From an uncultured Gemmatimonadaceae bacterium (lineage in GTDB: Bacteria; Latescibacterota; UBA2968; UBA8231), in contig CAYWBJ010000424.1 of NCBI GenBank assembly GCA_964456165.1, forward strand, positions 922-64,921: a stretch of 64,000 nucleotides of DNA, written 5' to 3'. The position numbers and the translations under genes were made by a program. Below, piece after piece: positions 7,889 through 64,000 of this stretch. The first letter of the stretch is position 1; each line of letters opens with the position of its first letter. Below the pieces are notes generated by a model. That model searched no databases, had not been told where the DNA came from, and worked only from the letters and a program-made list of their open reading frames with translations.

Positions 7889-7931
7889 CCGAACGCAGGA
7901 CCGACCCCGGAAAACGAGCTACGCCAGCGAA

Positions 7932-28629: not shown

Positions 28630-28697
28630 CTCATCTTATCCTTTGCATGATTAGGTGGGCTCAGGCGCTCCCCTGCCATTGGATGATGGAGAAAACG

Positions 28698-29444
28698 ATG
28701 TCAGCAGAACTCGACTACGGAACTATCATCACCGACCTCGACGAGGTAGGATTCCACATCGTCCCATCGGTCATTCCCGTGGAAAAAGCGGACGAAGCTC
28801 GCGCCGCTCTCGAGCAGCTTCTGGAAAAAGAGACCACCGCGCATGCGCTTGCCGAAAAGACGCAACGCGTGGGACGAATCGCCGTGAAGCATCCCATCTT
28901 TCTGGAGCTCATGACCCACGCAGCTATCGTAACCTTGTGGCGCAGATACCTCGGCGACGACGTGATATGCTCCACCTGGTCCGGCAACACGGTTTATCCC
29001 GGTGCAGCAGCCATCAACTGGCACGCGGACTACCCCTATTACTCCATCGTGCCGCCCTATCCACCCGGCCGCCTCGCAGGCCAGACGATATGGCTCCTCA
29101 ACGACTTGACCGAAGAGAACGGCGCCACCGCCATGCTCCCCGGGAGCCATCTCAAAGGCGAACCGCCGCCGCCGGAGCTCAAGCATAAGTGGATGGACGA
29201 AGGCCGGATCCTCACCGGCACCCGCGGAAGTGTCATCGTGATGAACGGTGCATCCTGGCACACCGCCCGCCCGAACCGAACAGGTGCAAGCCGCTCCGTC
29301 CTCCTCGGCATGTACATGCGCCCCTGGTTCATCCCGCTGGAAGACATGCGCGGCCAGTTGGCCGAATTGGAAAATCCATCCGAATTGGTACGCCATCTCA
29401 TGTGCGCCAACCAGCGCGTGCCGAAAAACGTTGGCGCCGCTTGA
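28698..29444 (+). CDS. PhyH-family Fe(II)/2-oxoglutarate dioxygenase (PhyH-1)
   Basis: MSAELDYGTIITDLDEVGFHIV... (alternative ATG 28683). NWHADYP (HxD), LPGSHLK, SWHTARPNRTGASR (distal His + Arg). Confidence 0.85.
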   Translation: MSAELDYGTIITDLDEVGFHIVPSVIPVEKADEARAALEQLLEKETTAHALAEKTQRVGRIAVKHPIFLELMTHAAIVTLWRRYLGDDVICSTWSGNTVYPGAAAINWHADYPYYSIVPPYPPGRLAGQTIWLLNDLTEENGATAMLPGSHLKGEPPPPELKHKWMDEGRILTGTRGSVIVMNGASWHTARPNRTGASRSVLLGMYMRPWFIPLEDMRGQLAELENPSELVRHLMCANQRVPKNVGAA

Positions 29445-33249: not shown

Positions 33250-33312
33250 CTGCCTGGAGCCCGGAACGGTGAGTGATGGTAATGCTGGCGCTGTCCCCCT
33301 TTGGCCAGCCGA

Positions 33313-33341
33313 TTGACCCTGCACCGCCGGCGGGATAGAAT
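33313..33341 (+). promoter_or_regulatory. candidate sigma70-type promoter for the 33367-37341 propeller operon
   Basis: TTGACC (33313-33318), exactly 17-nt spacer, TAGAAT (33336-33341). ATG at 33367 with GGGAGGA SD between. Best consensus match I found in the window. Confidence 0.45.
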
Positions 33342-33366
33342 TGCGGCACTTACGGGAGGAAACCGC

Positions 33367-40490: not shown

Positions 40491-41408
40491 TCAGCCGGCT
40501 GGCCGACGTTCCCCGTGATTCTCTCCCCAGTACTTGTAGCCCGGCACGTTGGCGCCGCAGTGAATGCCGCGGAACAAGGTTTGCCGCTGCGGCGGCATCG
40601 ATTCCACCAGTCCGGGCGGCGGCTCCCAGATCCCCCACTTGGAGTTGAGGCTGTTGTAGAGAGTGAAGAGGCAGATCCGCCCGTTCTCCTCGTTGGTCCA
40701 CGGGCTGGTACTGTGGGTCAGCGCCTCGGTGAAGAACAGCACCGAGCCGGCCGGGCATTCGTAGGTGTCCCACACGTCGAAATCCGGATTCCTGATCGCC
40801 GCGGGCGCCGTGTAGGCCGACTTGTGACTGCCCGTCGCCAGCATCGTGCCGCCCTGCCGGTACTTCACCGGGTTGAGCTCCCACATCACCCGCGTCAGGC
40901 CGCTGAACGCCCGACCCGGCACGCACTGGTAGTGGTGGGAGTCCTGCGCGAAACGGAAGAAGCCGTTGCCGTTGTGGGGCCCGAAGCCGCCGGGCGACTC
41001 CGTCGTGGTCCGCACCGCCAGCGTGCATGCCTCCAGCCTGAAGCCGTAACAGTCCGGGGTGGACATCGTCGGGTTGGCGAGGAACTCGTGCATGAACCCG
41101 ACGACCACCGGATGGTCCGTCAGCTGCTGCAGCGGGCCGGCGACGAAGGCGCGCTCCCGCTCTGGCAGCGATGCGGGCTCGTTGTGGACCCGGAGCGCGT
41201 AATCGCGCATCTCCGCCACTTCCGAATCGCTCAGCACCCCCGGAATCAGCAGCCAGCCCCTGGCGTCGAACAGGTACTTCTGCTCGGCGGTGAGCGGAAT
41301 GATAGGCCTGCCGTCGGCGTTGGTCTGCGGCAGGTCCCCCGGTTCCACCTGCATCGGCGCTCCGAGATTCTTGTCGAACAGGAACGGTTCGAGGTTCGTT
41401 GCAGTCAT
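40491..41408 (-). CDS. PhyH-family dioxygenase-like protein with H-x-G in place of H-x-D (PhyH-2)
   Basis: ATG 41408 (MTATNLEPFLFDK...). GGFGPHNGNG at the HxD position; TRVMWELNPVKYRQGGTMLATGSHKS aligns with the ...IWLLNDLTEENGATAMLPGSH block of PhyH-1; distal LTHSTSPW. Confidence 0.75.
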   Translation of the reverse strand: MTATNLEPFLFDKNLGAPMQVEPGDLPQTNADGRPIIPLTAEQKYLFDARGWLLIPGVLSDSEVAEMRDYALRVHNEPASLPERERAFVAGPLQQLTDHPVVVGFMHEFLANPTMSTPDCYGFRLEACTLAVRTTTESPGGFGPHNGNGFFRFAQDSHHYQCVPGRAFSGLTRVMWELNPVKYRQGGTMLATGSHKSAYTAPAAIRNPDFDVWDTYECPAGSVLFFTEALTHSTSPWTNEENGRICLFTLYNSLNSKWGIWEPPPGLVESMPPQRQTLFRGIHCGANVPGYKYWGENHGERRPAG

Positions 41409-41540
41409 GGCGGGCCTTTCGCCTCTGAAAGATCCAGGATCGTGCGTGCATCGATGTACGGCATTCTCCACGATCGGGTCAACGCGCCTGGCCGCACAGC
41501 GCATGCCGACTTGCCAGCGCCCGCCGTGGAAGGGCTTCGG

Positions 41541-46603: not shown

Positions 46604-46750
46604 TTCAGCAACTCTCGCAGCAGACGTGGACAGACCAAGTTTGCGAAACCGAATAAGGTATGTCCTCTGCGCTTCCCGTCCACTAACTTGTGGATCTGCC
46701 GTTTGCATGCCGGCGACCTGCCGGCTGCCCAGCTTTGGAGGAACGTAGCG

Positions 46751-47776
46751 ATGCGAGTAGGAGCTTTTCTGGTCCCGAATTTCGATGACGACTTCCTGCG
46801 CTTCCTGCAGCAGTACGGAGTCGCCGACGTAGTCGGTGGCTTCTCGTCGATCCCCGACTACACCAGCAAGTTCCCCCCCGAAGCCGGCGACCAGCCCGGC
46901 AACCACTGGAAATACGAAGAGCTGGTTCAGCTGCGGGAACGGGTCGAGAGGTACGGCATGACGCTGGCCAGCCTGGAAAACCCGCATCCAGCCTGGTGCT
47001 TCGATCACGTGTTGCTCGGCCTGCCCGGCCGCGACCAGCAACTCGAGAACCTCGCCATCACGATCCGCAACATGGGGCGGGCCGGCATCCCCTACGTCGG
47101 CTACAACTGGATGGGCAATCCGCCGGGGCTCTGGCGCTTCTCCACCCGCACTTCCACGACCTACCCAGCCCGCGGCGGCGCCGAGACCGACCTGCTCGAT
47201 ATGGCCACCATCGACACGGCGCCGATGTTCCGCGAGCGGGAATATGGAGAGCAGGAGATGTGGGAGAACTACGAGTATTTCGTCAGGGCGATCGTGCCGG
47301 TCCTGGAGGAGTCGGGCGTGCGCATGGGCCTGCACCCGGACGACCCACCGACGTCGAGCGTGGGGGGCATCGCCCGGATCTTCCACAGCCCGGAGGGTTA
47401 CCAGCGCGCCCTCGATCTGGCCGACAGCCCGGCCAGTGCCGTCAACCTCTGCCTGGGAAACTGGACGGCGATGGGCACCGACATCCTCGCCTCCATCCGC
47501 CAGTTCGGCGCCCAGAACCGGATCCTCTACGGCCACGCCCAGGGAGTGCAGGGCACCGTGCCCCGCTTCAACGAGTGTTTCCTGGACGAGGCCGACTGCG
47601 ACTACTACGACATCGTCCGCGCTTTCGACGAGGTCGGTATCGACACCTTCCTCGCCGTCGCCCACCTGCCGCGCACGATCAACGATGAGCCGCCCCAGTT
47701 CCAGGGACACGCCTTCGCCATCGGTTTCATGGCCGGCATCATCAAGTCGGCGCACCGCGCGACAGCTGACAGCTGA
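46751..47776 (+). CDS. UxuA-family (mannonate-dehydratase-like) protein, second copy
   Basis: ATG 46751 with GGAGGA SD. IVPVLEESGVRMGLHPDDPPTSSVGGIARIF, NLCLGNWTAMG, RILYGHAQGV blocks parallel those of 25224-26198. Confidence 0.8.
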   Translation: MRVGAFLVPNFDDDFLRFLQQYGVADVVGGFSSIPDYTSKFPPEAGDQPGNHWKYEELVQLRERVERYGMTLASLENPHPAWCFDHVLLGLPGRDQQLENLAITIRNMGRAGIPYVGYNWMGNPPGLWRFSTRTSTTYPARGGAETDLLDMATIDTAPMFREREYGEQEMWENYEYFVRAIVPVLEESGVRMGLHPDDPPTSSVGGIARIFHSPEGYQRALDLADSPASAVNLCLGNWTAMGTDILASIRQFGAQNRILYGHAQGVQGTVPRFNECFLDEADCDYYDIVRAFDEVGIDTFLAVAHLPRTINDEPPQFQGHAFAIGFMAGIIKSAHRATADS

Positions 47777-48064: not shown

Positions 48065-49204
48065 TCAATCCCACCACTCCTCACCCGGTGCCAAGTGGGC
48101 ACGCAGCAGTTCCTCGTTAAGCGCCACCCCGATCCCCGGTCGATCCGGCAGGGTGATGTAGCCACGGTCGACCACCGGTCCGCCCCAGTCGGCGGCGATA
48201 TCGTCCCACCACGGCGTGTCGAGTCCGTGGTGCTCCAGGGCCAGGAAGTTGGGTGCGTTGGCGCAGACGTGGGCTGAGGCCACCGTGCCCACTGGTGTGC
48301 AGATGTTGTGCGGCGCGAAGCTCAAGTAGTGCTGCTCGCACAGCTCCGCCACCTTCTTCCCCTCCTGGACCCCGCCGAAGCGGGGGATGTCCGGCGTGAT
48401 GATGTCGGCGGCCCGCGACTCGACCATCGGCCGCAGTCCATGGCTCATCCAGTGGTTCTCGCCGCAGGCGATCGGTACGGAGGTATGGTCGGTGACATAT
48501 TTCAGCGCCTCCAGGTTCTCCGGCGGCGTCGGATCCTCGAGCCAGAGGATGTCGATGTCCTCCAGCCGGCGGGCGATGCGCAGCGCGTCGGCCGTCTGGT
48601 AACACCAGTGCAGGTCCAGGCAGAGGTCGACTTCCGGGGGCAGGGCCTCCCACGCGGCGTGACCCACGGCACTCATAAACTCGACCTCCCGCCGCGACAG
48701 GCCGCGATTGTGGGGATCGTTGCGGTACGCAGCCGGCGCGCTGTTGTCGATGTCCACCTTTACCACCGTGTACCCGGCTTCGACGCGCTCCCGAACCCCG
48801 TCGGCATAGGCTTCGGGCGAGTGGTCGCCCGGCCTGCCCGTGTCGGCGTAGATGCGGATCCGGTCCCGGTATTTCCCGCCGAGCAGCTGCCACAACGGCT
48901 GGCCCGTGATCTTGCCCAGCAGGTCCCACAGCGCCAGCTCCACACCGGACAGGGCTAGCACGATGCTGCCTCCCGACGAGCCGGCGCCCGACAGGCTCCG
49001 GTAAATCTTCTGCGCCAGCGGCACGACCTGCCGCGGGTCTTCGCCCACGATAATGCGCTCGATGTGCCCGAGGATATCCCGCACGCCTAGCGGCAGCTGG
49101 GCCTCTCCGACGCCGCAGAGTCCCTCGTCGGTCTCTACCTTGACCAGGGTCCAGGTCCAGGGGATACCCTGAACCATCATCGATTTCAGTCCTGTGATCT
49201 TCAC
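48065..49204 (-). CDS. enolase-superfamily dehydratase, paralogue of 10207-11352
   Basis: GTG 49204 preceded by GGGAGGAG (VKITGLKSMMVQGIPWTWTLVKVETDEGLCGVGEA). LALWDLLGKITGQPLWQLLGGKYRD. Ligands LDLH...WLEDP...CGEN. Confidence 0.9.
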   Translation of the reverse strand: MKITGLKSMMVQGIPWTWTLVKVETDEGLCGVGEAQLPLGVRDILGHIERIIVGEDPRQVVPLAQKIYRSLSGAGSSGGSIVLALSGVELALWDLLGKITGQPLWQLLGGKYRDRIRIYADTGRPGDHSPEAYADGVRERVEAGYTVVKVDIDNSAPAAYRNDPHNRGLSRREVEFMSAVGHAAWEALPPEVDLCLDLHWCYQTADALRIARRLEDIDILWLEDPTPPENLEALKYVTDHTSVPIACGENHWMSHGLRPMVESRAADIITPDIPRFGGVQEGKKVAELCEQHYLSFAPHNICTPVGTVASAHVCANAPNFLALEHHGLDTPWWDDIAADWGGPVVDRGYITLPDRPGIGVALNEELLRAHLAPGEEWWD

Positions 49205-49435
49205 TTGAGGACTCCTCCCTTCCACCTGACGCTGACTGGGCTATGCCCGGAGACGCCAGGCAAGATGGCAACCAGGAGGCGCCGAGGCAAAAGCGGCCGT
49301 ACTGCCGGAACCCGCCAGCGGCCGCGCCTGCGGCCCACAGACTGCAACCCGCACGCTGCCGCAACGGTTGACCGCGCGCCGCGGCGCCTTCAGCTTCACA
49401 CCGTTCGGCAGCCGCTAATTACGGAGATAGAAACA

Positions 49436-50467: not shown

Positions 50468-51520
50468 TTGCGCATCACCAGGGTGACTGCCCTCTACCCA
50501 AATTGGAAGCACTTGCCAGCAGGCGCCTGGCAAACCCACTTCTGGCAGATCGTCGTCCAGGTAGAGACTGACGGGGGCGGCACCGGTCTGGGCTACGGTG
50601 GCGGTGGCGAGCCGGGGTGCGCGGTGATCAACCGGCATCTGCGCGAGCTCCTCGTCGGCCGTGCAATCGAGTCGATCGAGGACATCCGCGATACCTGGGA
50701 CCTGCTCTACGCCAAGTCCCTGCCGTACGGGCGCAAGGGGATCCCGATCATGGCACTCAGCGGCGTCGACCTGGCGCTCTGGGACCTGCTCGGCAAGGCG
50801 CGGGACGAGCCGGTGTACGAGCTGCTCGGCGGCCTGCGCAAACCCCGCGTCAGGGCCTACGCAACCGGCGACGACATGGAGCATTACCGCGACATGGGTT
50901 ACACCGCCAACAAGTTCAGCCCTGGTCGCGGCGGCAGCGACGCCGATCTACAGCAAACCGTGGCCAACGCCACTCGGTCCCGCCAGATTTTCGGTTCCGA
51001 CGGCACGATCATGACCGACTGTTACATGGGCTGGGACGGCGAGGCAACCCGACGCGCGGCCGCAGCAGTGAGCGGGCTCGACGTCTACTGGTTCGAGGAT
51101 GTCCTGAGCCCCGACCTGCTGTCCGAGCAGGCCGGGCTAAAGGAGGAGATTCAGCCGATTCGCCTGGCCGGTGGCGAGCACGAGTTCACCCGTTTCGGGT
51201 TTGCCGACATCGCCCGCGCCGGTGCCCTCGACATCTGGCAGCCAGATATCACCTGGTGTGGCGGGATCACCGAGGGGCTGCGCATCCTCGAGTTGGCCCG
51301 GGAGCACGGCGCCCAGGTGGTGCCCCATCGGGGCGGCGAGACCTGGGGGCTGCACTTCGTCGCCGCCACCGACTGCGACGACCTGGCCGAGTCGATGCCG
51401 GCGCGCTGGTCCCCGGGAAGCGACGAGCTGTGGCTGGACGAGCCGCGAGCCGTCGACGGCCACCTGACCCCACCCGACCGACCCGGATTCGGCGTGCGCC
51501 TCAACGAGGCGATGTTCTAG
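50468..51520 (+). CDS. enolase-superfamily dehydratase (rhamnonate/fuconate-dehydratase-like)
   Basis: TTG start preceded by GAAGGAGG. LALWDLLGKARDEPVYELLGG. Ligands MTDCY...WFEDV...GGEHE. Confidence 0.85.
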   Translation: MRITRVTALYPNWKHLPAGAWQTHFWQIVVQVETDGGGTGLGYGGGGEPGCAVINRHLRELLVGRAIESIEDIRDTWDLLYAKSLPYGRKGIPIMALSGVDLALWDLLGKARDEPVYELLGGLRKPRVRAYATGDDMEHYRDMGYTANKFSPGRGGSDADLQQTVANATRSRQIFGSDGTIMTDCYMGWDGEATRRAAAAVSGLDVYWFEDVLSPDLLSEQAGLKEEIQPIRLAGGEHEFTRFGFADIARAGALDIWQPDITWCGGITEGLRILELAREHGAQVVPHRGGETWGLHFVAATDCDDLAESMPARWSPGSDELWLDEPRAVDGHLTPPDRPGFGVRLNEAMF

Positions 51521-55911: not shown

Positions 55912-56700
55912 CTACTCGGCGGGCTGCAGGGCCCGCCAGCGTTCCCACCAGACGCGCACCTGGTCCGGCAGGGAAGATCCCACGTTGTCGGCCAGACGCC
56001 AGCGGAAACGCTCGTCTACCGTCTCTTCCACCGGCTCACCGGGATCGTGTTTGACCAGCCCGCCCGTCATCACCAGCCGCTCCTTCATGCTATCCGGCTT
56101 CCTGCCCCGGTGAATCGTGCCGCCATCCCAGATCAGCGTCTGCCCGCGCGCGAGGAAGACGTTGATCTGACCGCTGAGCTCCATCTTGCGGTCTTCGTAG
56201 AGCGCCCGGTGCTCTTCCCGGGTGCAGCAACGGCGCTGACTGTACGGCACCAGCCAGAGGCAGGGATCGTCGGTGAACGCCGTCTGCCACCGCAGCGCCT
56301 GCATCGGTCGGTTGAGAATCGCCATCTCCTCCTCGTAGCTCATCTCGGCCCTGTCCACCACATCCCGGTGCCAGCCCGTATCGTAGGCGTCCGACGCGTT
56401 GCGCAGGTGCACATAACCCAGGCGCAGGTCGGTGCCGAGAAACTCGTGCACATAGCGCAGCAGGGAAGGGGAGAGGAAGTGCTCGCCGAATACCGGCTCG
56501 CCGAACTCCGGGGCCAGCAGGCCGAAGATGGAACCAGCCTCCGGGCCTTTGCCCCACGGGTCCACCTCGCCGGAGCGCACTTTCTCCCAGACGTTCCACG
56601 ACGCTGTCTCCAGACGCTCGAAAAGCTCCGGCTCCAGGGCGTCCTCGACGATGGTGTATCCCTGACCCCAGAACTCCGCCATCACCCTTTCCATGCCCAT
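55912..56700 (-). CDS. PhyH-family dioxygenase (PhyH-5), tandem duplicate
   Basis: GWHRDV (HxD), TIHRGRK (distal His/Arg), but VPYSQRR where its neighbour has VPGSHRR. 5 nt after the stop of 56706-57488, with GGAG inside the upstream gene's end. Confidence 0.85.
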   Translation of the reverse strand: MGMERVMAEFWGQGYTIVEDALEPELFERLETASWNVWEKVRSGEVDPWGKGPEAGSIFGLLAPEFGEPVFGEHFLSPSLLRYVHEFLGTDLRLGYVHLRNASDAYDTGWHRDVVDRAEMSYEEEMAILNRPMQALRWQTAFTDDPCLWLVPYSQRRCCTREEHRALYEDRKMELSGQINVFLARGQTLIWDGGTIHRGRKPDSMKERLVMTGGLVKHDPGEPVEETVDERFRWRLADNVGSSLPDQVRVWWERWRALQPAE

Positions 56701-56705: not shown

Positions 56706-57488
56706 CTACTCCGGCTGCAGGGCGCGCCAGCGATCGTAGTACAGCTGCGACCGGGGCGGCAGCGAGTCCCTGATGTTGTCGGCCAGCTTCCAGCGGAAGC
56801 GCTCGTCCATCGCCATCTTCGGCTCTTGCGGATCATAGCGGAACAGGCCGATCGTCATGCTCAGCCGCTGCTCGAGGTCCGGGGGCTTGCGGCCGCGATG
56901 AACCGTGTAGCCGCTCCACAGCAGCATCTCTCCGCGTTTCAGGGGAACGTTGACCTGGGTCGAGATGTCCCGCTTGCCATCGAAGGCCAGCGCCTGGCGC
57001 TCCTCCTCGGTGCGGTATCTTCGATGGCTTCCCGGCACCAGCCAGAGGCAGGGATCGTCCACTAGCGCCACCTGGTACCGCAGGCCGATCATCGGCCGGC
57101 TCAGGAGCGCCATCTCCTCGTCGTAGGTGTTGTCCTTGGCCGGACCGAGGTCGCGATGCCAGCCGGTGTCGTAGCCGCCGTCGGCCGCCCACAGGTGGAC
57201 GTGGCCCATGCGCAGCTCCGGTCCCAGAAAGGCCTCGGCATAGCGCGTGATACCTTCGTAGGCCAGGATCTCGCCGAAGACCGGCTCGCCGAACTCGGGC
57301 GCCAGCAGGCCGAAGATGGAACCACCGTCCGGTCCGTTTCCGGCCACGTCGACAGCGCCCTCGCGGACTTGCGACCAGACGCTGCGGGCGCCGGCCTCGA
57401 GACGGTCGAGCATCCCCGGGTCGATGGCGTCGTCGACGATCACGTAGCCTTGGTCGAAGTACTCGGACTTGATCCTGGCGATGTCCAT
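56706..57488 (-). CDS. PhyH-family dioxygenase (PhyH-6), tandem duplicate
   Basis: ATG 57488 (MDIARIKSEYFDQGYVIVDDAI). GWHRDL, VPGSHRR, TVHRGRK. By eye about half of positions are identical to PhyH-5, including SIFGLLAPEFGEPVFGE and DERFRW.LADN. Confidence 0.85.
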   Translation of the reverse strand: MDIARIKSEYFDQGYVIVDDAIDPGMLDRLEAGARSVWSQVREGAVDVAGNGPDGGSIFGLLAPEFGEPVFGEILAYEGITRYAEAFLGPELRMGHVHLWAADGGYDTGWHRDLGPAKDNTYDEEMALLSRPMIGLRYQVALVDDPCLWLVPGSHRRYRTEEERQALAFDGKRDISTQVNVPLKRGEMLLWSGYTVHRGRKPPDLEQRLSMTIGLFRYDPQEPKMAMDERFRWKLADNIRDSLPPRSQLYYDRWRALQPE

Positions 57489-57607
57489 GTCGTTACCCGC
57501 GTCGCTCCATGCCCGTTGCCGCTGACCTAATCTGGACTCGAGCGGCCGGTTCTGCAACGGCGCGGTCCAGCGTCGGTCTACGCATTCATCTCCACTGCGT
57601 GCACCAG

Positions 57608-57727: not shown

Positions 57728-58591
57728 TTATTCCAGACCCGGCGGCACTCCGAAAGGTGGCCCGACGATGTGATGGCCGTCCGAGTTGACCACCGGCCAT
57801 CCCTGACCGCCCAGGTAGCCGAACTCCTCCCCCTTTCCACACAGCCAGCAGAACATCTCGGCGTTGTCGATGGTATCCCGGTGCTGCTGTCGGTAGGTCA
57901 GCGGCTTGCCGAAGCCGTAGTCAGCCGTGGCGAAATCGAATCCGTCGTCGCGGATCCAGTCTCGCTGCGGCGCAACAGTGCGGAAGTAGCTGTACTTGAG
58001 ATTGTGCCGCCTCCCGGCGCCCGTGGCCTCGCTGCGCCGGTGCCAGATCGAATAGACTGTCAGGATGACGCTGCCGGCCGGTGCCGAGGTGTAATGGGTT
58101 CCCCTTATGCTGCCGTAGTGACCCATGTAGTTCTGGGGGAGCTGGCCGAGCGTGTAGAGAAAATGGGAGCCCGGCAGCAGCTCGGTGGGCCCCATCTCCC
58201 GCGGCACATCCTGCGGATAGTAGAAGACCTGCAGATAGTTCAATGCGGGACCGACCTGGGAGGCTCCGTCGCGGTGCCAGTACTGTCTGGGCGCCGGCGC
58301 CTGCAGCCGGTGGTTACTCACCAGCACTGGTAAGCCGAAATCGCGGCCGAGAAGGGAACGTACCGCTCCGGCAACCGCGGGCGCGAGCAGGACGCGGTCG
58401 ACGAACCAGTCCTCAGCCAGCAGCTCAGCCGGCTCGCCCGCCCGGCGCGGCCGCCCGCTCTCCAGGAAATCGAGCGTGCGGCCGTTGATCTCGTCCGGCA
58501 CGACCCCCGGCAGTATCAGGAATCCCTGCTTGCAGAATTCCAGGACGTCGGAGTCACCGAGCGTCGGCTCGCAGTCGTGGCTCCTGATCAA
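57728..58591 (-). CDS. PhyH-family dioxygenase (PhyH-7), partner of small protein 58588-58959
   Basis: Start inferred by alignment with 63442 (MHTHDCEPT): TTG 58591 gives (M)IRSHDCEPTLGDSDVLEFC and overlaps the upstream TGA (gcTTGAtc); alternative GTG at 58603. YWHRDG (HxD), LPGSHFL, SIWHRRS. Confidence 0.8.
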   Translation of the reverse strand: MIRSHDCEPTLGDSDVLEFCKQGFLILPGVVPDEINGRTLDFLESGRPRRAGEPAELLAEDWFVDRVLLAPAVAGAVRSLLGRDFGLPVLVSNHRLQAPAPRQYWHRDGASQVGPALNYLQVFYYPQDVPREMGPTELLPGSHFLYTLGQLPQNYMGHYGSIRGTHYTSAPAGSVILTVYSIWHRRSEATGAGRRHNLKYSYFRTVAPQRDWIRDDGFDFATADYGFGKPLTYRQQHRDTIDNAEMFCWLCGKGEEFGYLGGQGWPVVNSDGHHIVGPPFGVPPGLE

Positions 58592-58959
58592 GCCGAACTC
58601 CACTTCTCCAGAATGAACTCGCATCCCAGGCCGTAGGTTCGTTTCTCGTCCAGGAGGATGGCCATCTCCGGGAACTTGATGATGCGCCACCCGTCGGCCA
58701 GCGCCTCGGCCACGGTCTGATAGGGCCAGTCGTCCGCATCGTCCGGCCCGTCCGCGAACTCGCCGTCCACGAACATGCTCATGCCGAGCACCTGGCTCGT
58801 CACCGACGTCTGCGCCGCCTGCAAGTAGAGCAGGTCCTGCCGTCCTTCTCCCAGCTGCGCGGCCAGCTCGCCGATGCGCCGGAGGCTCTCTTCCGCAAGC
58901 TCGTTGCGTCGCAGCTCATGTATGCAGCGGTCGACCTGCCTTGCAATCTGCTCTTTCAT
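58588..58959 (-). CDS. conserved small protein of unknown function (123 aa), copy 1
   Basis: MKEQIARQVDR...GRQDLLYLQAAQTSVTSQVLGMSMFVDGEFADGPDDADDWPYQTVAEALADGWRIIKFPEMAILLDEKRTYGLGCEFILEKWSSA. Homologous to 63052-63441. Stop overlaps the start of PhyH-7. Confidence 0.75.
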   Translation of the reverse strand: MKEQIARQVDRCIHELRRNELAEESLRRIGELAAQLGEGRQDLLYLQAAQTSVTSQVLGMSMFVDGEFADGPDDADDWPYQTVAEALADGWRIIKFPEMAILLDEKRTYGLGCEFILEKWSSA

Positions 58960-59058
58960 GCGCCTGCCCCGTCTGATGCCGCCTCGTCGGTGAGCGATGG
59001 CCTCAAGCTTAGCCCCCTAGCCGAAGCCCGGCAATCGGCGGGCCGCCCACCCCCAGAC

Positions 59059-59086
59059 TTGACGGGAAAGCGCGAATTGCGATTAT
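59059..59086 (+). promoter_or_regulatory. candidate sigma70-type promoter for PhyH-8 / membrane protein
   Basis: TTGACG (59059-59064), 16-nt spacer, GATTAT (59081-59086), ~35 nt upstream of the 59121 start. Confidence 0.35.
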
Positions 59087-59120
59087 GGGGAAATTCAGGG
59101 AACCGACGGGATGACCACGT

Positions 59121-59918
59121 GTGATGACACAGGCAACCTCCGCGGGTGACCAGGTGCTGGATCGCGCCCGGTTCGAGGGACTCTCCCCACGGCAGCAGCT
59201 GGACTTCTACAACGAGAACGGCTTCCTCCTCATTCCGGAGGCGGTGTCGGCCGGGCAGATGCAGCGTATCGACAAGGAGCTCTCCGCCAGGGAGATCCCG
59301 CGCCGCTGGGACTACTGGGATGAATGGCCGGGGCCGGAGCTCGAAAGCCTGATCGCCAATCCCCGGCTCCTAGAGCCGCTGCACCTCTGTTACGGCGACG
59401 ACCTGCGCTTCTTCAAGTCGGTCTACACCGAATGGCGCGACCGGGTTGCCACCGAGCTGGAGAACCGGCGGCAGCGCCTGCACCGCGACTACACCCCCGA
59501 GGCGACCGACGGTGACTACCGCAACAGCTGCGCCAGCTGGGTCAACGTCGGCCACTACTTCATCGACCTCGACGTCGACGAGGGCCCCCTCTGGGTCGTG
59601 CCGGGCAGCCACCGCCTGGCCTGGACCGGCCAGCGTGAGTTCGAGGAATTCGGCGACCAGGCCCGCATGGTCCTGGCGCGCGCCGGAGACGCGGTGATGT
59701 TCCACTGTCTGACCCTGCATGCCGGGGGTGCCATGGCCTCGGGCAACCCGCGGCCCAGCGTCTTCCAGTCTTACCGGGTCGGCTGGGCGGCGCCGCTCGA
59801 CACCGTGCCCGAGTGGCCGGAGGAAATCGTGCGCCAGGCGCCGCCGGAGCTCCGAAAGCTGCTCGAGGGCCTGAACGACGGAACCAGATTCGGAGTCCAC
59901 GGCATGATCCGGGCCTGA
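59121..59918 (+). CDS. PhyH-family dioxygenase (PhyH-8)
   Basis: GTG 59121 / ATG 59124. RLHRDY (HxD), VPGSHRL, LTLHAGGAMASGNPR. Sigma70-like promoter upstream. Confidence 0.85.
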   Translation: MMTQATSAGDQVLDRARFEGLSPRQQLDFYNENGFLLIPEAVSAGQMQRIDKELSAREIPRRWDYWDEWPGPELESLIANPRLLEPLHLCYGDDLRFFKSVYTEWRDRVATELENRRQRLHRDYTPEATDGDYRNSCASWVNVGHYFIDLDVDEGPLWVVPGSHRLAWTGQREFEEFGDQARMVLARAGDAVMFHCLTLHAGGAMASGNPRPSVFQSYRVGWAAPLDTVPEWPEEIVRQAPPELRKLLEGLNDGTRFGVHGMIRA

Positions 59919-59920
59919 AA

Positions 59921-61810
59921 GTGACCGTTCGCGCCCTCGTCATCGGCCTCCCCCTGGCCCTGATCGTCGGCGCCCTGGGCCCCGTCCTCTCCCTCTACGT
60001 CCAGGGACCCAACTCCAGTGCCTATTTCACCAGCCAGATAGCCCACTTCATCCTGTTCCTTCTGGTGGCGGTGGTCACCGTCGCGCTCGGCCGCCTGCGG
60101 CGCTCCTGGGCGTTCAGCAAAGCCGAGCTGGTGGTCCTGTTCGTCCTCATGAGCCTGGCCAACGGCACCCACATCATCGTCCACCACTGGGTACCTCTGG
60201 TCGCGAGCCCATTCTACTACGCCCGCACCGAGAACAATTGGCTGCACGAGATCGTCCCCTACATCCCCTCCTGGCTCGTGCCCCATCACGTCGAGGGGAT
60301 ACGTGCATTTTTCGAGGGCAGCGAGCAGGGCGGCGGCATCGCCTGGCACGTCTGGATCGATCCCATCCTGGGCTGGATGCCCCTCTTCCTGTCGCTCCCG
60401 GTAATCACCATCTGCGCGATGGTGATCCTGCGTCGGCGTTGGGTGGAGCAGGAGCGGCTGATCTATCCGGTGGTCCAGCTTTCCCTGTCGATGGTGCAGC
60501 GGGACGACCGCGGCTCGCTCGTTCACCCGTTCCTGCGGCGGGGAGCCATGTGGCTGGGATTCGCCGTCCCCGTGATCACGGGCGCCATCGTGGGCCTGCA
60601 CGCCTTCTTCCCCTTCCTCCCCAAGGTCGAGGTCACCTACGCCGTCCCCCTCTTCAAGCGGATGTACCTCAGCTTCGCCACCCTCGGATTCTTCTTCCTG
60701 ATCCAGCGGGAGGTAGCCTTCGGCCTGTGGGTCTTCACCCTGCTCAACCACCTTCAGAACGCCGTCTACGACGAGCTAGGCTGGGCGACCGAGGCCGAGC
60801 CGGTGATCAGCGCCTGGAGCTACGGCACCCCCAGCCTCGTACATCAGGGGATGGGTGCGATGATCGTCCTCGTCCTCGGCGGCCTCTGGGTCGGGCGCGA
60901 ACACCTGGCCAACGTCTTCCGCAAGGCTTTCCGCGGCGCCGACAACGTCCGGGACGACGATGAGATCCTCTCGTACCGCGGAGCCGTGTTCGGACTTCTG
61001 CTGGGCACGGTGGTGATGGCAGTCTGGCTCTGGCGCATGGGCATTCCGGCCATCGGGGTCGTCGCCCTGATGTTCTTTCTCGCCGTCATCTTCCTCGCCC
61101 TGACCCGGGTCATCGTCGAGGGCGGGGTCGCCGTGATCTACACCCCGATGGTGGCCGAGGACGCGGTCATGTCGGCCGTCGGCACCTCGGTCTTCGGACC
61201 CAGCGGCCTAATGGGTCTGACCTTCACCCGTATTTTCGGCAACGACCTGCTCAACTTCGTCATGCCCCACGCCGCCAACGGGCTCAAGCTCGCCGGCGAG
61301 ATCGACCGTCGCCGCCGCCCCCTGTTCTGGGCCATGCTCGCGGCGACGCTGCTGGGCATGTTCGGCGCCCTCTGGATGCTCCTGCACCTGGCCTCCACCT
61401 ACGGCGCCATCAACATGAGCCGCATCCACTTCGTCTGGTTCCCCAACTACCTCGGCGACTACACCGCCGCCCGCATCGCCCAGCCCACCGGACCCAACGC
61501 CCTGGGATGGTTCCATACCGGCGTCGGCGGCGCCGTCATGGCACTGCTCATGCTCGCCCGCCGGTTCTGGGGCTGGTGGCCGCTACACCCGATCGGCTTT
61601 CCCATCAGCTCCACCTTTCGCTGGATGGCGTTCAACGCCTTTCTCGCCTGGATGATCAAGGGGCCGATCCTCAAATACGGGGGCGTCTCCATGTACAAAG
61701 CGGTGCGCCCGTTTTTCCTCGGGCTCATCCTCGGCCACTTCGCGATCTACGGGGTTTTCTGGATCGTCAACGGGCTGACCGGGGTGACCGGCAACTGGCT
61801 CTTCCCCTGA
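59921..61810 (+). CDS. large polytopic inner-membrane protein of unknown family (~629 aa, about 12-14 predicted TM segments)
   Basis: GTG 59921, 2 nt after the PhyH-8 stop, within ORF 59813-61810. Successive hydrophobic stretches (VRALVIGLPLALIVGALGPVL, IAHFILFLLVAVVTVALG, LGWMPLFLSLPVITICAMVIL, AVFGLLLGTVVMAVWLW, VVALMFFLAVIFLAL, LFWAMLAATLLGMFGALWMLL, FFLGLILGHFAIYGVFWIV ...). No transporter-family motif recognised. Confidence 0.8.
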   Translation: MTVRALVIGLPLALIVGALGPVLSLYVQGPNSSAYFTSQIAHFILFLLVAVVTVALGRLRRSWAFSKAELVVLFVLMSLANGTHIIVHHWVPLVASPFYYARTENNWLHEIVPYIPSWLVPHHVEGIRAFFEGSEQGGGIAWHVWIDPILGWMPLFLSLPVITICAMVILRRRWVEQERLIYPVVQLSLSMVQRDDRGSLVHPFLRRGAMWLGFAVPVITGAIVGLHAFFPFLPKVEVTYAVPLFKRMYLSFATLGFFFLIQREVAFGLWVFTLLNHLQNAVYDELGWATEAEPVISAWSYGTPSLVHQGMGAMIVLVLGGLWVGREHLANVFRKAFRGADNVRDDDEILSYRGAVFGLLLGTVVMAVWLWRMGIPAIGVVALMFFLAVIFLALTRVIVEGGVAVIYTPMVAEDAVMSAVGTSVFGPSGLMGLTFTRIFGNDLLNFVMPHAANGLKLAGEIDRRRRPLFWAMLAATLLGMFGALWMLLHLASTYGAINMSRIHFVWFPNYLGDYTAARIAQPTGPNALGWFHTGVGGAVMALLMLARRFWGWWPLHPIGFPISSTFRWMAFNAFLAWMIKGPILKYGGVSMYKAVRPFFLGLILGHFAIYGVFWIVNGLTGVTGNWLFP

Positions 61811-61941
61811 CGCCGGTCGATGGACCCGGCTCTATTCGGTTCGGGCCAACACCCACGCGCGTTGGCGCACCGGAGGCGGCTCCTCTTGTCACCCTCCGCA
61901 GAGTCCGGCCAAGTCCTGAGTTGGCACCCCGGAGATGTCAA

Positions 61942-61970
61942 TTGGCGACGGCCATGGTGGGCGCTATTTT
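61942..61970 (+). promoter_or_regulatory. candidate sigma70-type promoter for PhyH-9
   Basis: TTGGCG (61942-61947), 17-nt spacer, TATTTT (61965-61970). Favours GTG 62009 as the start codon. Confidence 0.3.
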
Positions 61971-62008
61971 CCTAATCGCCGCCTTTGCAGAAACCGATCG
62001 GAGCGCCC

Positions 62009-62773
62009 GTGACCTCCTACATCGACGAGTGTGTTGAGCAGGTCCTGACCCGCGGCCACTGCCTGCTGAAAGGTCGCTTCCCCGCCCAGGCGGTCGAGTC
62101 CTGCCGCGAGGGTTTCATGCCGCTGCTGGAACAAGTCGGCCAGCGAATTCCCGAGGGCAATCGCGGCCTTTGCCGCTGGGCGATCGGCCTGCCCTTCGCT
62201 CCCCCTTTCTATCATTCCGCCTTCTTCACCGACGCACTGGTAAACGAGATCTGCCGCCGGATCCTCGGCGACGGCATGCACGTGGTCTACTACGGCACCG
62301 ACACGCCGGTGAAGGGCTCCGATTTCCAGAAGGTACATGCCGACATTCCCTTCCCCTTCCCGGAGGAGCCGGGCATCCGGCACCCACCCCTGACTCTGTC
62401 GGTACGCTTCACCTTCGGTGCCATGACGATGGCGAACGGTCCCTTCGAGGTGGCACCAGGCACCCAGTACCTGCCCCGGCAAGAGACTATCGCCAAGCTG
62501 GAAGCCGGCGAGATCCCGCTCGAGCCGCTGCTGCTGGACGTGGGCGATGTGATCGTCTCCGATGCCCGGACACCGCACCGCGGCACACCGAACCACACGG
62601 ACGAGCCGCGGCCCTTCGCCGTCATCGTCTACAACCGCGATTTCTATTTCCAGGAGCGCTGGGAAGAGGGCCTCGAGGCCAACGACAACCCCGTGTTGCT
62701 GGAATCGTTCTACCGGTCGCTGTCTGAAGAGGAGCAGCGCCTGCTCAGGCGCTTGCCGCGCACCCAGTGCTGA
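62009..62773 (+). CDS. PhyH-family dioxygenase (PhyH-9)
   Basis: ORF opens at TTG 61985; GTG 62009 has a GGAG SD 5 nt upstream and lies downstream of a sigma70-like promoter. KVHADIP (HxD), APGTQYL (variant of PGSH), TPHRGTPNHTDEPR. Confidence 0.8.
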   Translation: MTSYIDECVEQVLTRGHCLLKGRFPAQAVESCREGFMPLLEQVGQRIPEGNRGLCRWAIGLPFAPPFYHSAFFTDALVNEICRRILGDGMHVVYYGTDTPVKGSDFQKVHADIPFPFPEEPGIRHPPLTLSVRFTFGAMTMANGPFEVAPGTQYLPRQETIAKLEAGEIPLEPLLLDVGDVIVSDARTPHRGTPNHTDEPRPFAVIVYNRDFYFQERWEEGLEANDNPVLLESFYRSLSEEEQRLLRRLPRTQC

Positions 62774-63051
62774 AGCGCGGCCGGGCCGGCGCTCCCATGT
62801 CTGATCTCATGGCGATGGTATCTTGGATACGGGGCGGCAGAATCGGGAGCAGATTGAATTCCCGGCATCACCCTGCACGGGTGCCGGTCAGCGGCAGCAG
62901 CATGGGAGATCGGCGTCCCGATCGCGCCATCGGCCTGCCAATCCTGTCAGCTTGTTGGGGATCCGGGTGATCGCTTTATTCCTCTACCGTTACGGCATCC
63001 TGCCTGCGCGCCGGCTTCCGCTCGTTTCGCAACGGTCTTGAAGGCAACGAT

Positions 63052-63441
63052 ATGAATCTAAATCAGCGGCAACAGATCGTCGTCGACTGTTTGGAACACC
63101 TAGCGAAGGGGACGCTCACCGTCGATGCCTTGAGTGGTGCGTTCGAACAGGTGCTGTCAGAAAACGGCCGACGTCAGGACTTGCTCTACCTGCAGACGAA
63201 CGAGAGCGCCCTGCATTCGGGGGTGATCGGCATGAAGATGCTGGTCAACGGTGAGTACGCCGCCGACCCCGCGCCTGCCGGTCCCAAGCCCACTCCCGAT
63301 GATGGCTGGCCCTACGCGACCGTGATCGACGCGATCAGAGACGGCTGGCGGGTGATCAGCTTCCCCAACATGGCCCTTAGCCTGGACGAGAATCGCACGT
63401 ATGGCCTGGGTTTCGAGTTCATTCTGGAGAGGTGGCGCTAG
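63052..63441 (+). CDS. conserved small protein of unknown function (129 aa), copy 2
   Basis: MNLNQRQQIVVD...RRQDLLYLQTNESALHSGVIGMKMLVNGEYAADP...DDGWPYATVIDAIRDGWRVISFPNMALSLDENRTYGLGFEFILERWR. GAAGG SD. TAG stop directly abuts the ATG of the next gene (TAGATG). Confidence 0.75.
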   Translation: MNLNQRQQIVVDCLEHLAKGTLTVDALSGAFEQVLSENGRRQDLLYLQTNESALHSGVIGMKMLVNGEYAADPAPAGPKPTPDDGWPYATVIDAIRDGWRVISFPNMALSLDENRTYGLGFEFILERWR

Positions 63442-64000
63442 ATGCATACCCACGACTGTGAGCCAACCCTGACAGACCGCCAGGTCATCGAGTTCTGTCG
63501 CGAGGGCTTCCTGACGCTCGAAGGAGCAGTGGAGGCAGGAGTAACCGACCGCGCCATCGAGTATTGCCATGCGCACCCGGAGGATCGCGAGCTCTCGGTC
63601 CTGCTCGAAGAGGACTGGTTCGTCGACGGAATTCTGCTGGCCCCGGCCGTCGCCGGGGCCGTTCGCAGTCTCCTCGGGGCCGGCTTCGGCCTCTCGCCGT
63701 TCGTCGCCAACCACATCGGCGAGTGCCCCGATCCCGATCCGTTGGGCTGGCACGTGGACGGCGGCAACGTGCACACCTTCGCCCTCAACTACCTGCAGGT
63801 CTTCTGCCTGCCCCAGGACACCACTGTCGAGATGGGCCCGACCGAGATCCTGCCCGGCAGCCACTTCCTGCTCGGGCAAAGCGCCCTGGTCTCCCGCTAC
63901 GGCGCCATCCGCGGCACCCGGATGTGCACCGGCCCGGCCGGCACCGTTTACATCACCTGTTATCCGATCTGGCACCGCCGCTACCGGGCGACTGCCACCG
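63442..64000 (+). CDS. PhyH-family dioxygenase (PhyH-10), 5' part; runs off window end
   Basis: MHTHDCEPTLTDRQVIEFCREGFLTLEG...LGWHVDGG (HxD), LPGSHFL, PIWHRRY. Collinear with PhyH-7 (LLAPAVAGAVRSLLG, LNYLQVF). No stop before 64000. Confidence 0.8.
   Translation, partial: MHTHDCEPTLTDRQVIEFCREGFLTLEGAVEAGVTDRAIEYCHAHPEDRELSVLLEEDWFVDGILLAPAVAGAVRSLLGAGFGLSPFVANHIGECPDPDPLGWHVDGGNVHTFALNYLQVFCLPQDTTVEMGPTEILPGSHFLLGQSALVSRYGAIRGTRMCTGPAGTVYITCYPIWHRRYRATAT

What the first reader, a model, noticed from the sequence alone, without database searches (positions are those of the whole stretch)
57728..64000. Duplicated two-gene cassette: conserved ~125-aa unknown protein start/stop-coupled to a dedicated PhyH subtype, present twice and reading outward
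Copy 1 (minus strand) is small ORF 58588-58959 followed by PhyH-7 57728-58591; the stop and start overlap in gcTTGAtc. Copy 2 (plus strand) is small ORF 63052-63441 followed by PhyH-10 from 63442; stop and start abut as TAGATG.

The small proteins diverge over the first ~40 residues. They are then strongly similar: RQDLLYLQ, V.GM.M.V.GE.A, DD.WPY.TV..A..DGWR.I.FP.MA..LDE.RTYGLG.EFILE.W. I recognise no family.

Their PhyH partners form their own subtype (HDCEPTL, LLAPAVAGAVRSLLG, LNYLQVF, LPGSHFL, IWHRR) distinct from the other eight copies. Conserved pairing plus coupling in both copies argues for a functional two-component unit. Possibilities are an accessory or specificity subunit, a protein substrate, or a regulator of the oxygenase. 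I have not seen this described.
Basis: partly seen in the sequence, partly recalled or inferred. Interest (0 to 1): 0.75.

Follow-up and report, generated by a model that had tools for sequence, protein, structure and literature searches.

The report
Unknown small partner of PhyH oxygenases
A conserved but unnamed 120-residue protein is encoded directly upstream of, and tightly spaced with, one particular subtype of iron/2-oxoglutarate oxygenase in hundreds of uncultured bacteria from at least ten phyla. This window carries two old, diverged copies of that two-gene unit, which most likely encodes a two-subunit enzyme of a kind not yet described.

Summary
Both small ORFs (58588-58959 minus strand, 63052-63441 plus strand) are real genes. 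They are 47% identical to each other. Each is joined stop-to-start to a PhyH-type oxygenase of one distinct subtype.

- **The pairing holds far beyond this genome.** The small protein defines a compact family with no Pfam, NCBIfam or PDB match, found at 573 or more loci in genomes of at least ten phyla.
  - 68 of the 80 best loci have the same PhyH subtype directly downstream, and 61 of 67 measured pairs are spaced by 11 nt or less.
  - Searching from the oxygenase side, 61 of 78 have the small gene directly upstream.
- **The pair evolves as a unit.** Partner distances correlate (r = 0.80), and the small gene is under purifying selection (median dN/dS 0.12).
- **One residue pair switches charge in concert.** R107 of the small protein and D242 of the oxygenase go from basic:acid to acid:basic together.
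- **A recurrent natural fusion exists.** It joins the small domain to another PhyH domain.
- **Nothing else in the neighbourhood is conserved.**
- **The two window copies are old sub-lineages, not a recent duplication.**

My best reading is that the small protein is a non-catalytic partner subunit of this oxygenase clade (confidence about 0.5). A protein-substrate role is not excluded. The substrate is unknown. I rate this a new variant of a known kind.

The parts
58588..58959 (-). Small partner gene, copy 1 (123 aa). It belongs to an unnamed family with the motifs RQDLLYLQ, WPY, DGWR(V/I)I.FP and RTYGLG.EFILE.W.
   Evidence: ORF. It is 47% identical to copy 2 and has no Pfam or NCBIfam hit. 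It has 223 homologues. The AF2 model was built on the copy-2 sequence with the family alignment: pLDDT 84, an N-terminal helical hairpin plus an alpha/beta core.
57728..58591 (-). PhyH-7-type Fe(II)/2-oxoglutarate oxygenase, copy 1 (287 aa from TTG 58591; alternative GTG start at 58603). Predicted catalytic residues are H106, D108 and H184, with R195 for 2-oxoglutarate.
   Evidence: Pfam PF05721 scores 23.6 bits against a cut-off of 22. Residue conservation is shown. AF2 gives pLDDT 89 and pTM 0.90. Foldseek matches SptF, HygX, KanJ, TlxIJ, FtmOx1 and PrhA at E down to 2.5e-11.
58598..58601 (-). GGAG Shine-Dalgarno-like element inside the last codons of the small gene, 6 nt upstream of the TTG start of PhyH-7.
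   Evidence: Read from the sequence. In many homologous loci the terminal W-R codons (TGGAGGTAA) supply the same element.
63052..63441 (+). Small partner gene, copy 2 (129 aa).
   Evidence: ORF. This exact protein is seen on 23 or more contigs. It was the query of the homologue search.
63442..64000 (+). PhyH-7-type oxygenase, copy 2 ('PhyH-10'). Only the first 186 codons lie in the window; the full length is 303 aa.
   Evidence: The ATG abuts the TAG stop. It is 53% identical to copy 1. The full gene is on L169 at 7391-8302. Lentisphaeria homologues are 68-69% identical.

Best explanation
The small protein is a non-catalytic partner subunit of one clade of PhyH-type Fe(II)/2-oxoglutarate oxygenases.

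The two genes are transcribed together, and stop-to-start coupling should make them in near-equal amounts (inferred). The products then form a stable hetero-complex (inferred). Within that complex, the loop around R107 of the small protein ('D-E-x-R-T-Y-G-L-G') touches the C-terminal helix of the oxygenase ('R-D-x-x-D-x-A-E-M-F', D242). That helix lies in the C-terminal extension that distinguishes this subtype.

The oxygenase carries out the chemistry. Its H-x-D...H iron triad and the 2-oxoglutarate arginine are intact, and its fold matches enzymes that hydroxylate or rearrange small molecules. The small subunit would either hold the enzyme in an active, soluble conformation or form part of the substrate-binding cap and so set specificity.

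Shown: gene linkage in both directions, conserved close spacing, co-divergence, concerted charge reversal, a natural fusion to a PhyH domain, intact catalytic residues, and no known fold or family for the small protein. Inferred: the physical complex, its stoichiometry, the role of the small subunit, and the substrate, which is unknown.
For: - **Linkage from the small-gene side.** 68 of the 80 best genome loci have the PhyH-7 type directly downstream on the same strand. Most exceptions still have it adjacent in another order.
- **Linkage from the oxygenase side.** 61 of 78 have the small gene directly upstream, and 5 more have it elsewhere in the locus.
- **Spacing.** Stop-to-start distance is 11 nt or less in 61 of 67 pairs, including 14 ATGA overlaps and 8 TGATG.
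- **Only the pair is conserved.** No third gene recurs in more than 14 of 80 loci.
- **Co-divergence.** Partner distances correlate at r = 0.80, against a permutation maximum of 0.20. 77 of 94 nearest neighbours agree.
- **Charge swap.** Small-protein position 107 against oxygenase position 242 is basic:acid in 61 pairs, acid:basic in 22, and never like:like. The swapped state occurs in at least two clades.
- **Natural fusion.** A PhyH-domain::small-core fusion (P0143, 353 aa) occurs in 4 clusters at 75-100% identity on 24 or more contigs. It is still followed at -4 nt by a PhyH-7-type gene.
- **A distant branch keeps the pairing.** That branch of the small family is also followed by a PhyH-like gene.
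- **Selection.** Median dN/dS is 0.12.
- **The oxygenase looks catalytically complete**, and its structural neighbours are small-molecule enzymes.
- **Precedent.** PhyH-type enzymes can need an auxiliary partner, as TlxI/TlxJ do (PMC12141560).
Against: - No physical interaction was tested.
- The oxygenase models confidently on its own (pTM 0.90), so nothing in the model shows it to be incomplete.
- About 11 of 78 PhyH-7-type genes have no small gene within 3 kb, and tandem second PhyH-7 copies lack one of their own.
- A few small genes sit next to other enzymes, namely an aldo/keto reductase, an RraA-like protein and a xylose-isomerase-like TIM barrel.
- The charge swap is tied to clades and so is not independent of phylogeny.
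- Gene linkage and co-divergence would equally fit an enzyme-substrate pair.
Confidence: 0.5

Rival explanations
1. The small protein is the dedicated protein substrate. The oxygenase would hydroxylate or otherwise oxidise one of its invariant residues (for example W86/P87/Y88, D97, W99, P105 or Y117, copy-2 numbering). That would create a modified protein or a protein-derived cofactor, and the modified product would be the functional end point.
For: - Strict gene linkage and co-divergence are what precursor/modifier pairs show.
- Contact covariation fits an enzyme-substrate interface as well as a subunit interface.
- Several loci carry two or three PhyH-7 paralogues per small gene, as happens when several tailoring enzymes act on one precursor.
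- The invariant residues include aromatic, Pro and Asp side chains that 2OG oxygenases are known to hydroxylate (the chemistry is established knowledge).
Against: - The small protein is a folded ~85-residue core conserved to its last residue, with no hypervariable region. This is unlike RiPP precursors.
- The oxygenase's closest structures are all small-molecule enzymes (SptF, HygX, KanJ, FtmOx1, PrhA, a free-proline hydroxylase), not protein hydroxylases such as FIH or JmjC.
- One-to-one translational coupling is unusual for an enzyme and its substrate.
- The small core is fused to a PhyH domain in one lineage.
- No further gene that could use a modified protein is conserved nearby.
Confidence: 0.15
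2. The two proteins act in the same pathway without forming a stable complex. The small protein would be a ligand-binding, sensing or delivery module for the oxygenase's substrate or product, or a second enzyme for the next step. Co-inheritance would then reflect only shared metabolism.
For: - The weak, non-significant Foldseek hits recur among small-molecule-binding alpha/beta modules, namely GAF, PAS/LOV and LuxR-type ligand-binding domains.
- Human PhyH is known to use a ~120-residue carrier, SCP2, to present its substrate (my own knowledge, not checked here).
- Some small genes occur next to non-PhyH catabolic enzymes.
Against: - All Foldseek hits have E of 0.2 or more and TM-scores of 0.34 or less.
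- There is no SCP2 or other ligand-binding Pfam match.
- The concerted charge reversal and the fusion argue for direct contact.
- Spacing of 11 nt or less in 61 of 67 pairs is tighter than ordinary operon neighbours. In the same loci, neighbours are not conserved at all.
Confidence: 0.2
3. The module is a toxin-antitoxin or anti-phage defence pair, with a small upstream neutraliser and a downstream enzyme.
For: The architecture (a small upstream gene coupled to a larger enzyme gene, spread patchily across phyla) superficially resembles such systems.
Against: - Neither protein hits PADLOC.
- Neighbours are catabolic genes (enolase superfamily, Gfo/Idh/MocA, aldo/keto reductases, BNR, other PhyH), not mobile or defence genes.
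- The oxygenase resembles metabolic and tailoring enzymes.
Confidence: 0.02

Closest known systems
TlxI/TlxJ and TlxA/TlxC heterodimeric Fe(II)/alpha-ketoglutarate oxygenases of fungal talaromyolide biosynthesis (PDB 7VBQ)
   Same: A PhyH-type oxygenase works with a non-catalytic auxiliary protein encoded in the same cluster. TlxIJ is among the top structural matches of PhyH-7. The auxiliary is proposed to keep the catalytic partner in a productive conformation (PMC12141560).
   Different: TlxI is itself a full-length double-stranded beta-helix paralogue that has lost the 2OG-binding arginine. Here the partner is a 120-residue alpha/beta protein of unrelated, unrecognised fold. The system is bacterial, translationally coupled and spread over many phyla.
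MbtH-like proteins with NRPS adenylation domains
   Same: A small (~70 aa), Trp-rich, non-catalytic protein is encoded beside its enzyme and is needed for that enzyme's solubility or activity. It forms a family-specific one-to-one partnership. This comparison rests on my own knowledge.
   Different: There is no sequence relationship: the Pfam scan of both small proteins returned no MbtH hit. The partner enzyme class is different. The requirement for activity is untested here.
MNIO (DUF692) enzymes with partner proteins such as MbnB/MbnC and TglH/TglI
   Same: An iron oxygenase is paired with a small non-catalytic partner that, according to the review, guides the substrate (PMC12141560).
   Different: Those partners recruit a peptide precursor encoded alongside. 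No third conserved gene or precursor exists here. The enzyme folds are unrelated.
Carrier-protein-dependent PhyH-family halogenases and hydroxylases (e.g. SyrB2 with SyrB1)
   Same: A PhyH-superfamily enzyme acts only together with a small, separately encoded protein. This comparison rests on my own knowledge.
   Different: Carrier proteins are four-helix bundles with an invariant phosphopantetheinylated Ser. The small family has no invariant Ser and a mixed alpha/beta fold. It has no PP-binding Pfam hit.
Human phytanoyl-CoA hydroxylase with sterol carrier protein 2
   Same: The name-giving PhyH enzyme uses a ~120-residue alpha/beta protein to present its lipid substrate. This comparison rests on my own knowledge.
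   Different: No SCP2 match was found by Pfam or Foldseek. SCP2 is not genetically coupled to PHYH.

Membership tests
PhyH (Pfam PF05721) Fe(II)/2-oxoglutarate oxygenase: the downstream genes | Profile match above Pfam's gathering score | tested here: inconclusive
   Copy 1 scores 23.6 bits against a cut-off of 22. Copy 2 scores 18.1 bits as the window fragment and 16.5 bits at full length, both below the cut-off. About half of the listed homologues carry a precomputed PF05721 hit.
PhyH (Pfam PF05721) Fe(II)/2-oxoglutarate oxygenase: the downstream genes | Double-stranded beta-helix fold of the PhyH type | tested here: met
   AF2 gives pLDDT 89 and pTM 0.90. Foldseek probability is 1.00 to SptF, HygX, TlxIJ, KanJ, FtmOx1 and PrhA, with E 2.5e-11 to 1e-9 and TM about 0.55.
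PhyH (Pfam PF05721) Fe(II)/2-oxoglutarate oxygenase: the downstream genes | H-x-D...H iron triad and a 2OG-binding Arg about 11 residues after the distal His | tested here: met
   H106 and D108 are at least 90% conserved, H184 is invariant, and R195 (+11) is at least 90% conserved across 35 diverse members. Assignment of these residues to the triad is by motif position, not by a structure with metal bound.
PhyH (Pfam PF05721) Fe(II)/2-oxoglutarate oxygenase: the downstream genes | 2OG-dependent oxygenase activity | not testable with these tools
   Requires an enzyme assay.
Any described protein family: the small protein | Significant match to a curated sequence profile or a solved structure | tested here: not met
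   Pfam gave nothing (best E 0.13), and NCBIfam and PADLOC gave no hits. A PDB profile search gave best E 0.074. Foldseek gave best E 0.2 against PDB and 0.29 against BFVD. Sources name the protein only 'hypothetical protein'.
TlxIJ-type heteromeric alpha-KG oxygenase | The auxiliary subunit is a catalytically dead DSBH paralogue of the catalytic subunit | tested here: not met
   The small protein has 123-129 aa, with two helices plus a four-stranded alpha/beta core. It has no PhyH or cupin profile hit.
TlxIJ-type heteromeric alpha-KG oxygenase | Physical heterodimer with enhanced catalysis | not testable with these tools
Only indirect support is available, from covariation and the fusion.
RiPP precursor plus tailoring oxygenase | Short precursor with a conserved leader and a variable core | tested here: not met
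   Conservation is highest in the C-terminal 85 residues and runs to the last residue. The N-terminus is the more variable part, and the whole protein is predicted folded. There is no NHLP or Nif11 NCBIfam hit.
Acyl/peptidyl carrier protein partner of PhyH-family enzymes | Four-helix bundle with an invariant Ser for phosphopantetheine | tested here: not met
   The invariant columns contain no Ser. The fold is mixed alpha/beta. There is no PP-binding hit.

The most novel reading that the evidence does not exclude
The small protein is not a subunit but the dedicated protein substrate of its oxygenase. One of its invariant aromatic, Pro or Asp residues would be oxidised to give a protein-derived cofactor or a hydroxylated effector. 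That would define a new class of bacterial protein-modification system built on a PhyH-type enzyme.
Probability: 0.12. Interest if true: 0.8.

Novelty: new variant of a known kind. Interest (0 to 1): 0.55.

Why it matters
PhyH-type iron/2-oxoglutarate oxygenases are generally treated as self-sufficient enzymes or homodimers. The only documented auxiliary partners I found are dead paralogues in two fungal pathways (PMC12141560).

This finding suggests a different arrangement. A whole bacterial clade of these oxygenases (956 homologues at E 1e-10 or better) appears to come with an unrelated, unnamed 120-residue partner. If so, expressing such an oxygenase alone may give inactive or misleading results.

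The module is also common in uncultured lineages such as Poribacteria, Latescibacterota, Chloroflexota, Planctomycetota and Lentisphaeria. Their large oxygenase expansions are invoked to explain the breakdown of recalcitrant marine organic matter.

The finding supplies:
- a new protein family to name;
- a specific, testable contact (R107-D242);
- a simple experimental entry point, co-expression.

Tried and rejected
- **Linker-fused complex model.** I built a linker-fused small+PhyH-7 chain with a paired 26-row alignment (A3) for AF2.
- **Modelling the natural fusion P0143.** I dropped this because only 4 close homologues exist, too few for a reliable alignment. The last structure job went to PhyH-7 instead.
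- **Two apparent small::PhyH-7 fusions were artefacts.** L075 has an in-frame TAG that my script read through. P0281 (348 aa) is a frameshifted gene call.
- **P0182.** This membrane-segment+small protein comes from a single short contig and was not pursued.
- **A conserved third gene.** I looked for one to hint at the pathway and found none.
- **DUF6785 membrane protein and hydantoinase genes.** They flank the module in this genome but do not recur in other loci.
- **Literature.** Searches on PhyH in sponge symbionts, PhyH and SAR202 paralogues, and accessory proteins of 2OG oxygenases found no description of this pair.
- **Taxon of the window.** Source names are masked. A TonB-dependent receptor with a CarboxypepD_reg domain and a type IX secretion C-terminal domain only suggest a Gram-negative marine heterotroph.
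- **First mutual-information script.** It was killed by the sandbox and rewritten.
- **Programmed frameshift or read-through.** I rejected the idea of a single fused product because spacing and relative frame vary among loci (-14 to +75 nt).


Full report
**1. The observation**

The ORF list shows a 123-aa ORF at 58588-58959 (minus strand) and a 129-aa ORF at 63052-63441 (plus strand). BLASTP aligns them at 47% identity over 116 residues (E 3e-37).

In copy 1 the small ORF ends GCT TGA. The downstream PhyH frame opens with the TTG that overlaps it (TTGA), and a GGAG lies 6 nt upstream. An in-frame GTG 12 nt further up is a possible alternative start. In copy 2 the stop TAG abuts the ATG.

Both downstream proteins hit Pfam PhyH weakly, at 23.6 and 18.1 bits against a cut-off of 22. 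They are 53% identical to each other. They match the other PhyH genes of the window only at E 4e-6 or weaker.

**2. The small ORFs are real genes of an unnamed family**

- Neither small protein matches any Pfam, NCBIfam or PADLOC model.
- A word-indexed search of 5.8 billion proteins returned 223 homologues of 116-151 aa. Where named at all they are called 'hypothetical protein', and they come from MAGs of Pirellulaceae, Planctomycetes, Abditibacteriaceae and Poribacteria.
- A full profile search of 1.84 billion cluster representatives found only 291 clusters at E 1e-3 or better. Almost all are stand-alone proteins of 60-150 aa. This is a compact, single-domain family.
- In 43 diverse members, 18 columns are invariant, including Q42, D43, W86-P87-Y88, G98-W99-R100 and F104-P105 in copy-2 numbering.
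- Among 89 closely related gene pairs (dS 0.05-0.6), median dN/dS is 0.12.
- AlphaFold2 with this alignment gives pLDDT 84 and pTM 0.64. The model has an N-terminal helical hairpin, then a four-stranded sheet with two short helices and a variable loop.
- Foldseek finds nothing significant in the PDB (best E 0.2) or BFVD (best E 0.29). A PDB profile search finds nothing either.

**3. The pairing is conserved in both directions**

*From the small gene.* A scan of one genome per species found at least 573 loci encoding the small protein. They lie in MAGs labelled Lentisphaeria, Opitutales, Spirochaetia, Latescibacterota, Poribacteria, Chloroflexota/Dehalococcoidia/Caldilineaceae, Gemmatimonadetes, Bryobacterales, Planctomycetota and Phycisphaerae.

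In the best 80 loci, 68 have a PhyH-7-type gene directly downstream on the same strand. These are 44-69% identical to the window enzymes, with E from 1e-60 to 1e-117. The exceptions fall into these groups:
- contig ends;
- the same two genes in reversed or divergent order (L009, L034, L045, L067);
- another PhyH inserted between them (L042, L055);
- a few small genes next to an aldo/keto reductase, an RraA-like gene or a xylose-isomerase-like TIM barrel.

*From the oxygenase.* A metagenome scan with a PhyH-7 alignment gave 78 genes with enough upstream sequence. Of these, 61 have the small gene directly upstream, 5 have it elsewhere in the locus, and about 11 have none within 3 kb.

Even a distant branch of the small family (P0250) is followed by a PhyH-like ORF with the same YYPQD..MGPT..PG(S/T)HF motif.

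**4. Close spacing is conserved; the neighbourhood is not**

Stop-to-start spacing is 11 nt or less in 61 of 67 adjacent pairs. The commonest values are -4 (ATGA, 14 pairs), -1 (TGATG, 8 pairs), +3 (14 pairs) and +6 (14 pairs). In many loci the last W-R codons of the small gene (TGGAGGTAA) form the ribosome-binding site of the oxygenase gene.

Clustering all neighbouring ORFs showed that no third family recurs in more than 14 of 80 loci. Neighbours are a changing set of catabolic families: Gfo/Idh/MocA, enolase superfamily, aldo/keto reductases, BNR, M81/MlrC and other PhyH types. The unit is the pair.

**5. Evidence bearing on direct contact**

- **Co-divergence.** Distances between small proteins and between their cognate oxygenases correlate at r = 0.80 over 94 pairs. 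The permutation maximum is 0.20. Nearest neighbours agree in 77 of 94 cases. Any co-inherited pair would show this, so it is not specific to contact.
- **Concerted charge reversal.**
  - The strongest inter-protein covariation involves small-protein residues 107-108 (the 'RT' of 'RTYGLG') and oxygenase residues 234 and 242 in the C-terminal helix 'RDxxDxAEMF'.
  - For positions 107 and 242, the states are basic:acid in 61 pairs, acid:basic in 22, and never like:like.
  - The reversed state occurs in one clade of 18 plus L039, and separately in the L153/L156/L162 clade.
  - This is the pattern of a salt bridge, but it rests on few independent events.
- **Natural fusion.**
  - In one Planctomycetota lineage the small core, without its helical hairpin, is fused to the C-terminus of another PhyH domain (PF05721, 45 bits).
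  - The fusion protein is always 353 aa, forms 4 clusters at 75-100% identity, and is seen on at least 24 contigs.
  - It is still followed at -4 nt by a PhyH-7-type gene that is 51% identical to the window enzyme.

**6. The oxygenase**

The subtype has 956 homologues at E 1e-10 or better. It is marked by a conserved N-terminus starting right after the Met (x-T-H-D-C-E-P-T-L) and by a ~90-residue C-terminal extension.

H106-x-D108, H184 and R195 (+11 from the distal His, the spacing I recall for human PHYH) are conserved. The enzyme therefore looks catalytically competent.

Its AF2 model is confident (pLDDT 89, pTM 0.90), with one disordered loop at 148-151. The closest solved structures all act on small molecules: SptF, HygX, KanJ, FtmOx1, PrhA, AviO1 and a free-proline hydroxylase. 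The TlxI/TlxJ heterodimer is also among them. No protein hydroxylase appears among the top matches.

**7. Interpretation**

The evidence most simply fits a two-subunit enzyme: a catalytic PhyH-type oxygenase plus a small non-catalytic partner made in step with it. The closest precedent is TlxI/TlxJ, where a dead paralogue supports the catalytic subunit (PMC12141560). Here the partner is an unrelated small protein. That makes it functionally more like an MbtH-type helper (my own knowledge), without any sequence relationship.

I put this reading at about 0.5. The rivals are:
- **Pathway companion without a stable complex (about 0.2).** The small protein would be a ligand-binding or pathway protein. 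The charge swap, the fusion and the very tight spacing weaken this.
- **Dedicated protein substrate (about 0.15).** The fully conserved folded C-terminus, the small-molecule-type structural neighbours of the enzyme and the one-to-one coupling argue against it, but nothing excludes it.
- **Defence or toxin-antitoxin pair (about 0.02).** There are no PADLOC hits and the context is catabolic.

The substrate remains unknown. Because the neighbourhood is not conserved, it gives no reliable hint.

**8. The two copies in this window**

The copies are 47% (small protein) and 53% (oxygenase) identical to each other.

| | Nearest relatives of the small protein | Nearest relatives of the oxygenase |
|---|---|---|
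| Copy 1 | 59-62%, Latescibacterota and Dehalococcoidia | 63-64%, Latescibacterota, Poribacteria and a metagenome contig |
| Copy 2 | 57-60%, Lentisphaeria and an unclassified marine MAG | 68-69%, the same MAGs |

The copies represent two old sub-lineages of the module held in one genome, not a recent duplication.

On a 104-kb contig of the same organism, copy 2 continues with the full 303-aa oxygenase. A further 287-aa PhyH of another subtype follows at +2 nt, and then hydantoinase A and B genes.

**9. Novelty and verdict**

I found no description of the small family or of this pairing in profile libraries, solved structures or the searchable literature.

- The enzyme belongs to a known superfamily.
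- Auxiliary partners for such enzymes are known in principle.
- The partner family and the widespread, coupled bacterial module are new.

I classify the finding as a new variant of a known kind, with interest 0.55.

Noticed in passing
window 28608-29444, 40491-41504, 55912-56700, 56706-57557, 57728-58591, 59121-59918, 61985-62773, 63442-64000: There are eight Pfam-supported PhyH genes in 64 kb, six of them within the last 8 kb. They belong to at least four mutually distant subtypes. 55912-56700 and 56706-57557 are close paralogues of each other (E 1e-97). Whether any are catalytically dead auxiliaries like TlxI was not examined.
   Followed up: partly
window 59921-61810 (+): A DUF6785/DUF6784 multi-pass membrane protein (362 and 79 bits) sits between two PhyH genes and starts 2 nt after the stop of the PhyH at 59121-59918. 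It may be a transporter for the oxygenase substrates. It does not recur in the module's loci in other genomes.
   Followed up: partly
L169 8305-12987 (just beyond the window's right end; window coordinate = L169 coordinate + 56051): Downstream of copy 2 lies another PhyH (287 aa, 22.6 bits) at +2 nt. Hydantoinase A and hydantoinase B genes follow. Together this suggests a longer operon in this organism.
   Followed up: partly
L081-L084 4001-5892 (Planctomycetota MAG contigs): A natural 353-aa fusion joins a different PhyH domain to the small-protein core (P0143). A PhyH-7-type gene follows it at -4 nt, and a 786-aa AMMECR1/HEAT-like protein comes next. This lineage would be well suited to structural work on how the small domain packs against a PhyH fold.
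   Followed up: partly
window 4398-6074, 11369-13357, 13253-14863, 16232-18190, 33301-34821, 38440-39633: Six long ORFs (397-662 aa) with high third-position GC, as expected of real genes, have no Pfam match at E 1e-3. 11369-13357 and 13253-14863 lie on opposite strands and overlap by about 100 nt, so at least one start is probably called too long.
   Followed up: no
window 10207-11352, 23043-24242, 48065-49225, 50468-51520; 25224-26198, 46688-47776; 20407-21465, 36193-37341: The window holds a dense set of paralogous catabolic families: four enolase-superfamily genes, two UxuA-like dehydratases and two BNR_2 sialidase-like genes. It also holds amidohydrolase_2, M20 and M81/MlrC peptidases. 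This is the kind of paralogue expansion described for marine degraders of dissolved organic matter.
   Followed up: no
window 43328-45703 (-) and 7278-9875 (+): A TonB-dependent receptor with an N-terminal CarboxypepD_reg domain is present. So is an 865-aa protein ending in a type IX secretion (CHU_C/FlgD_ig) sorting domain. Together with 65% GC they hint at a Gram-negative, possibly FCB-group, marine organism. Identical module sequences occur in the marine metagenome contigs CEVA01227731 and Ga0310344_10018430 (L085, L086).
   Followed up: partly
L046, L052, L057, L072 (Poribacteria MAGs), about 4085-8528: These clusters carry three PhyH-7-type genes and two small genes. The second small gene is coupled (+1 nt) to a xylose-isomerase-like TIM-barrel protein rather than to a PhyH. 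The small family is therefore not strictly limited to PhyH partners.
   Followed up: partly
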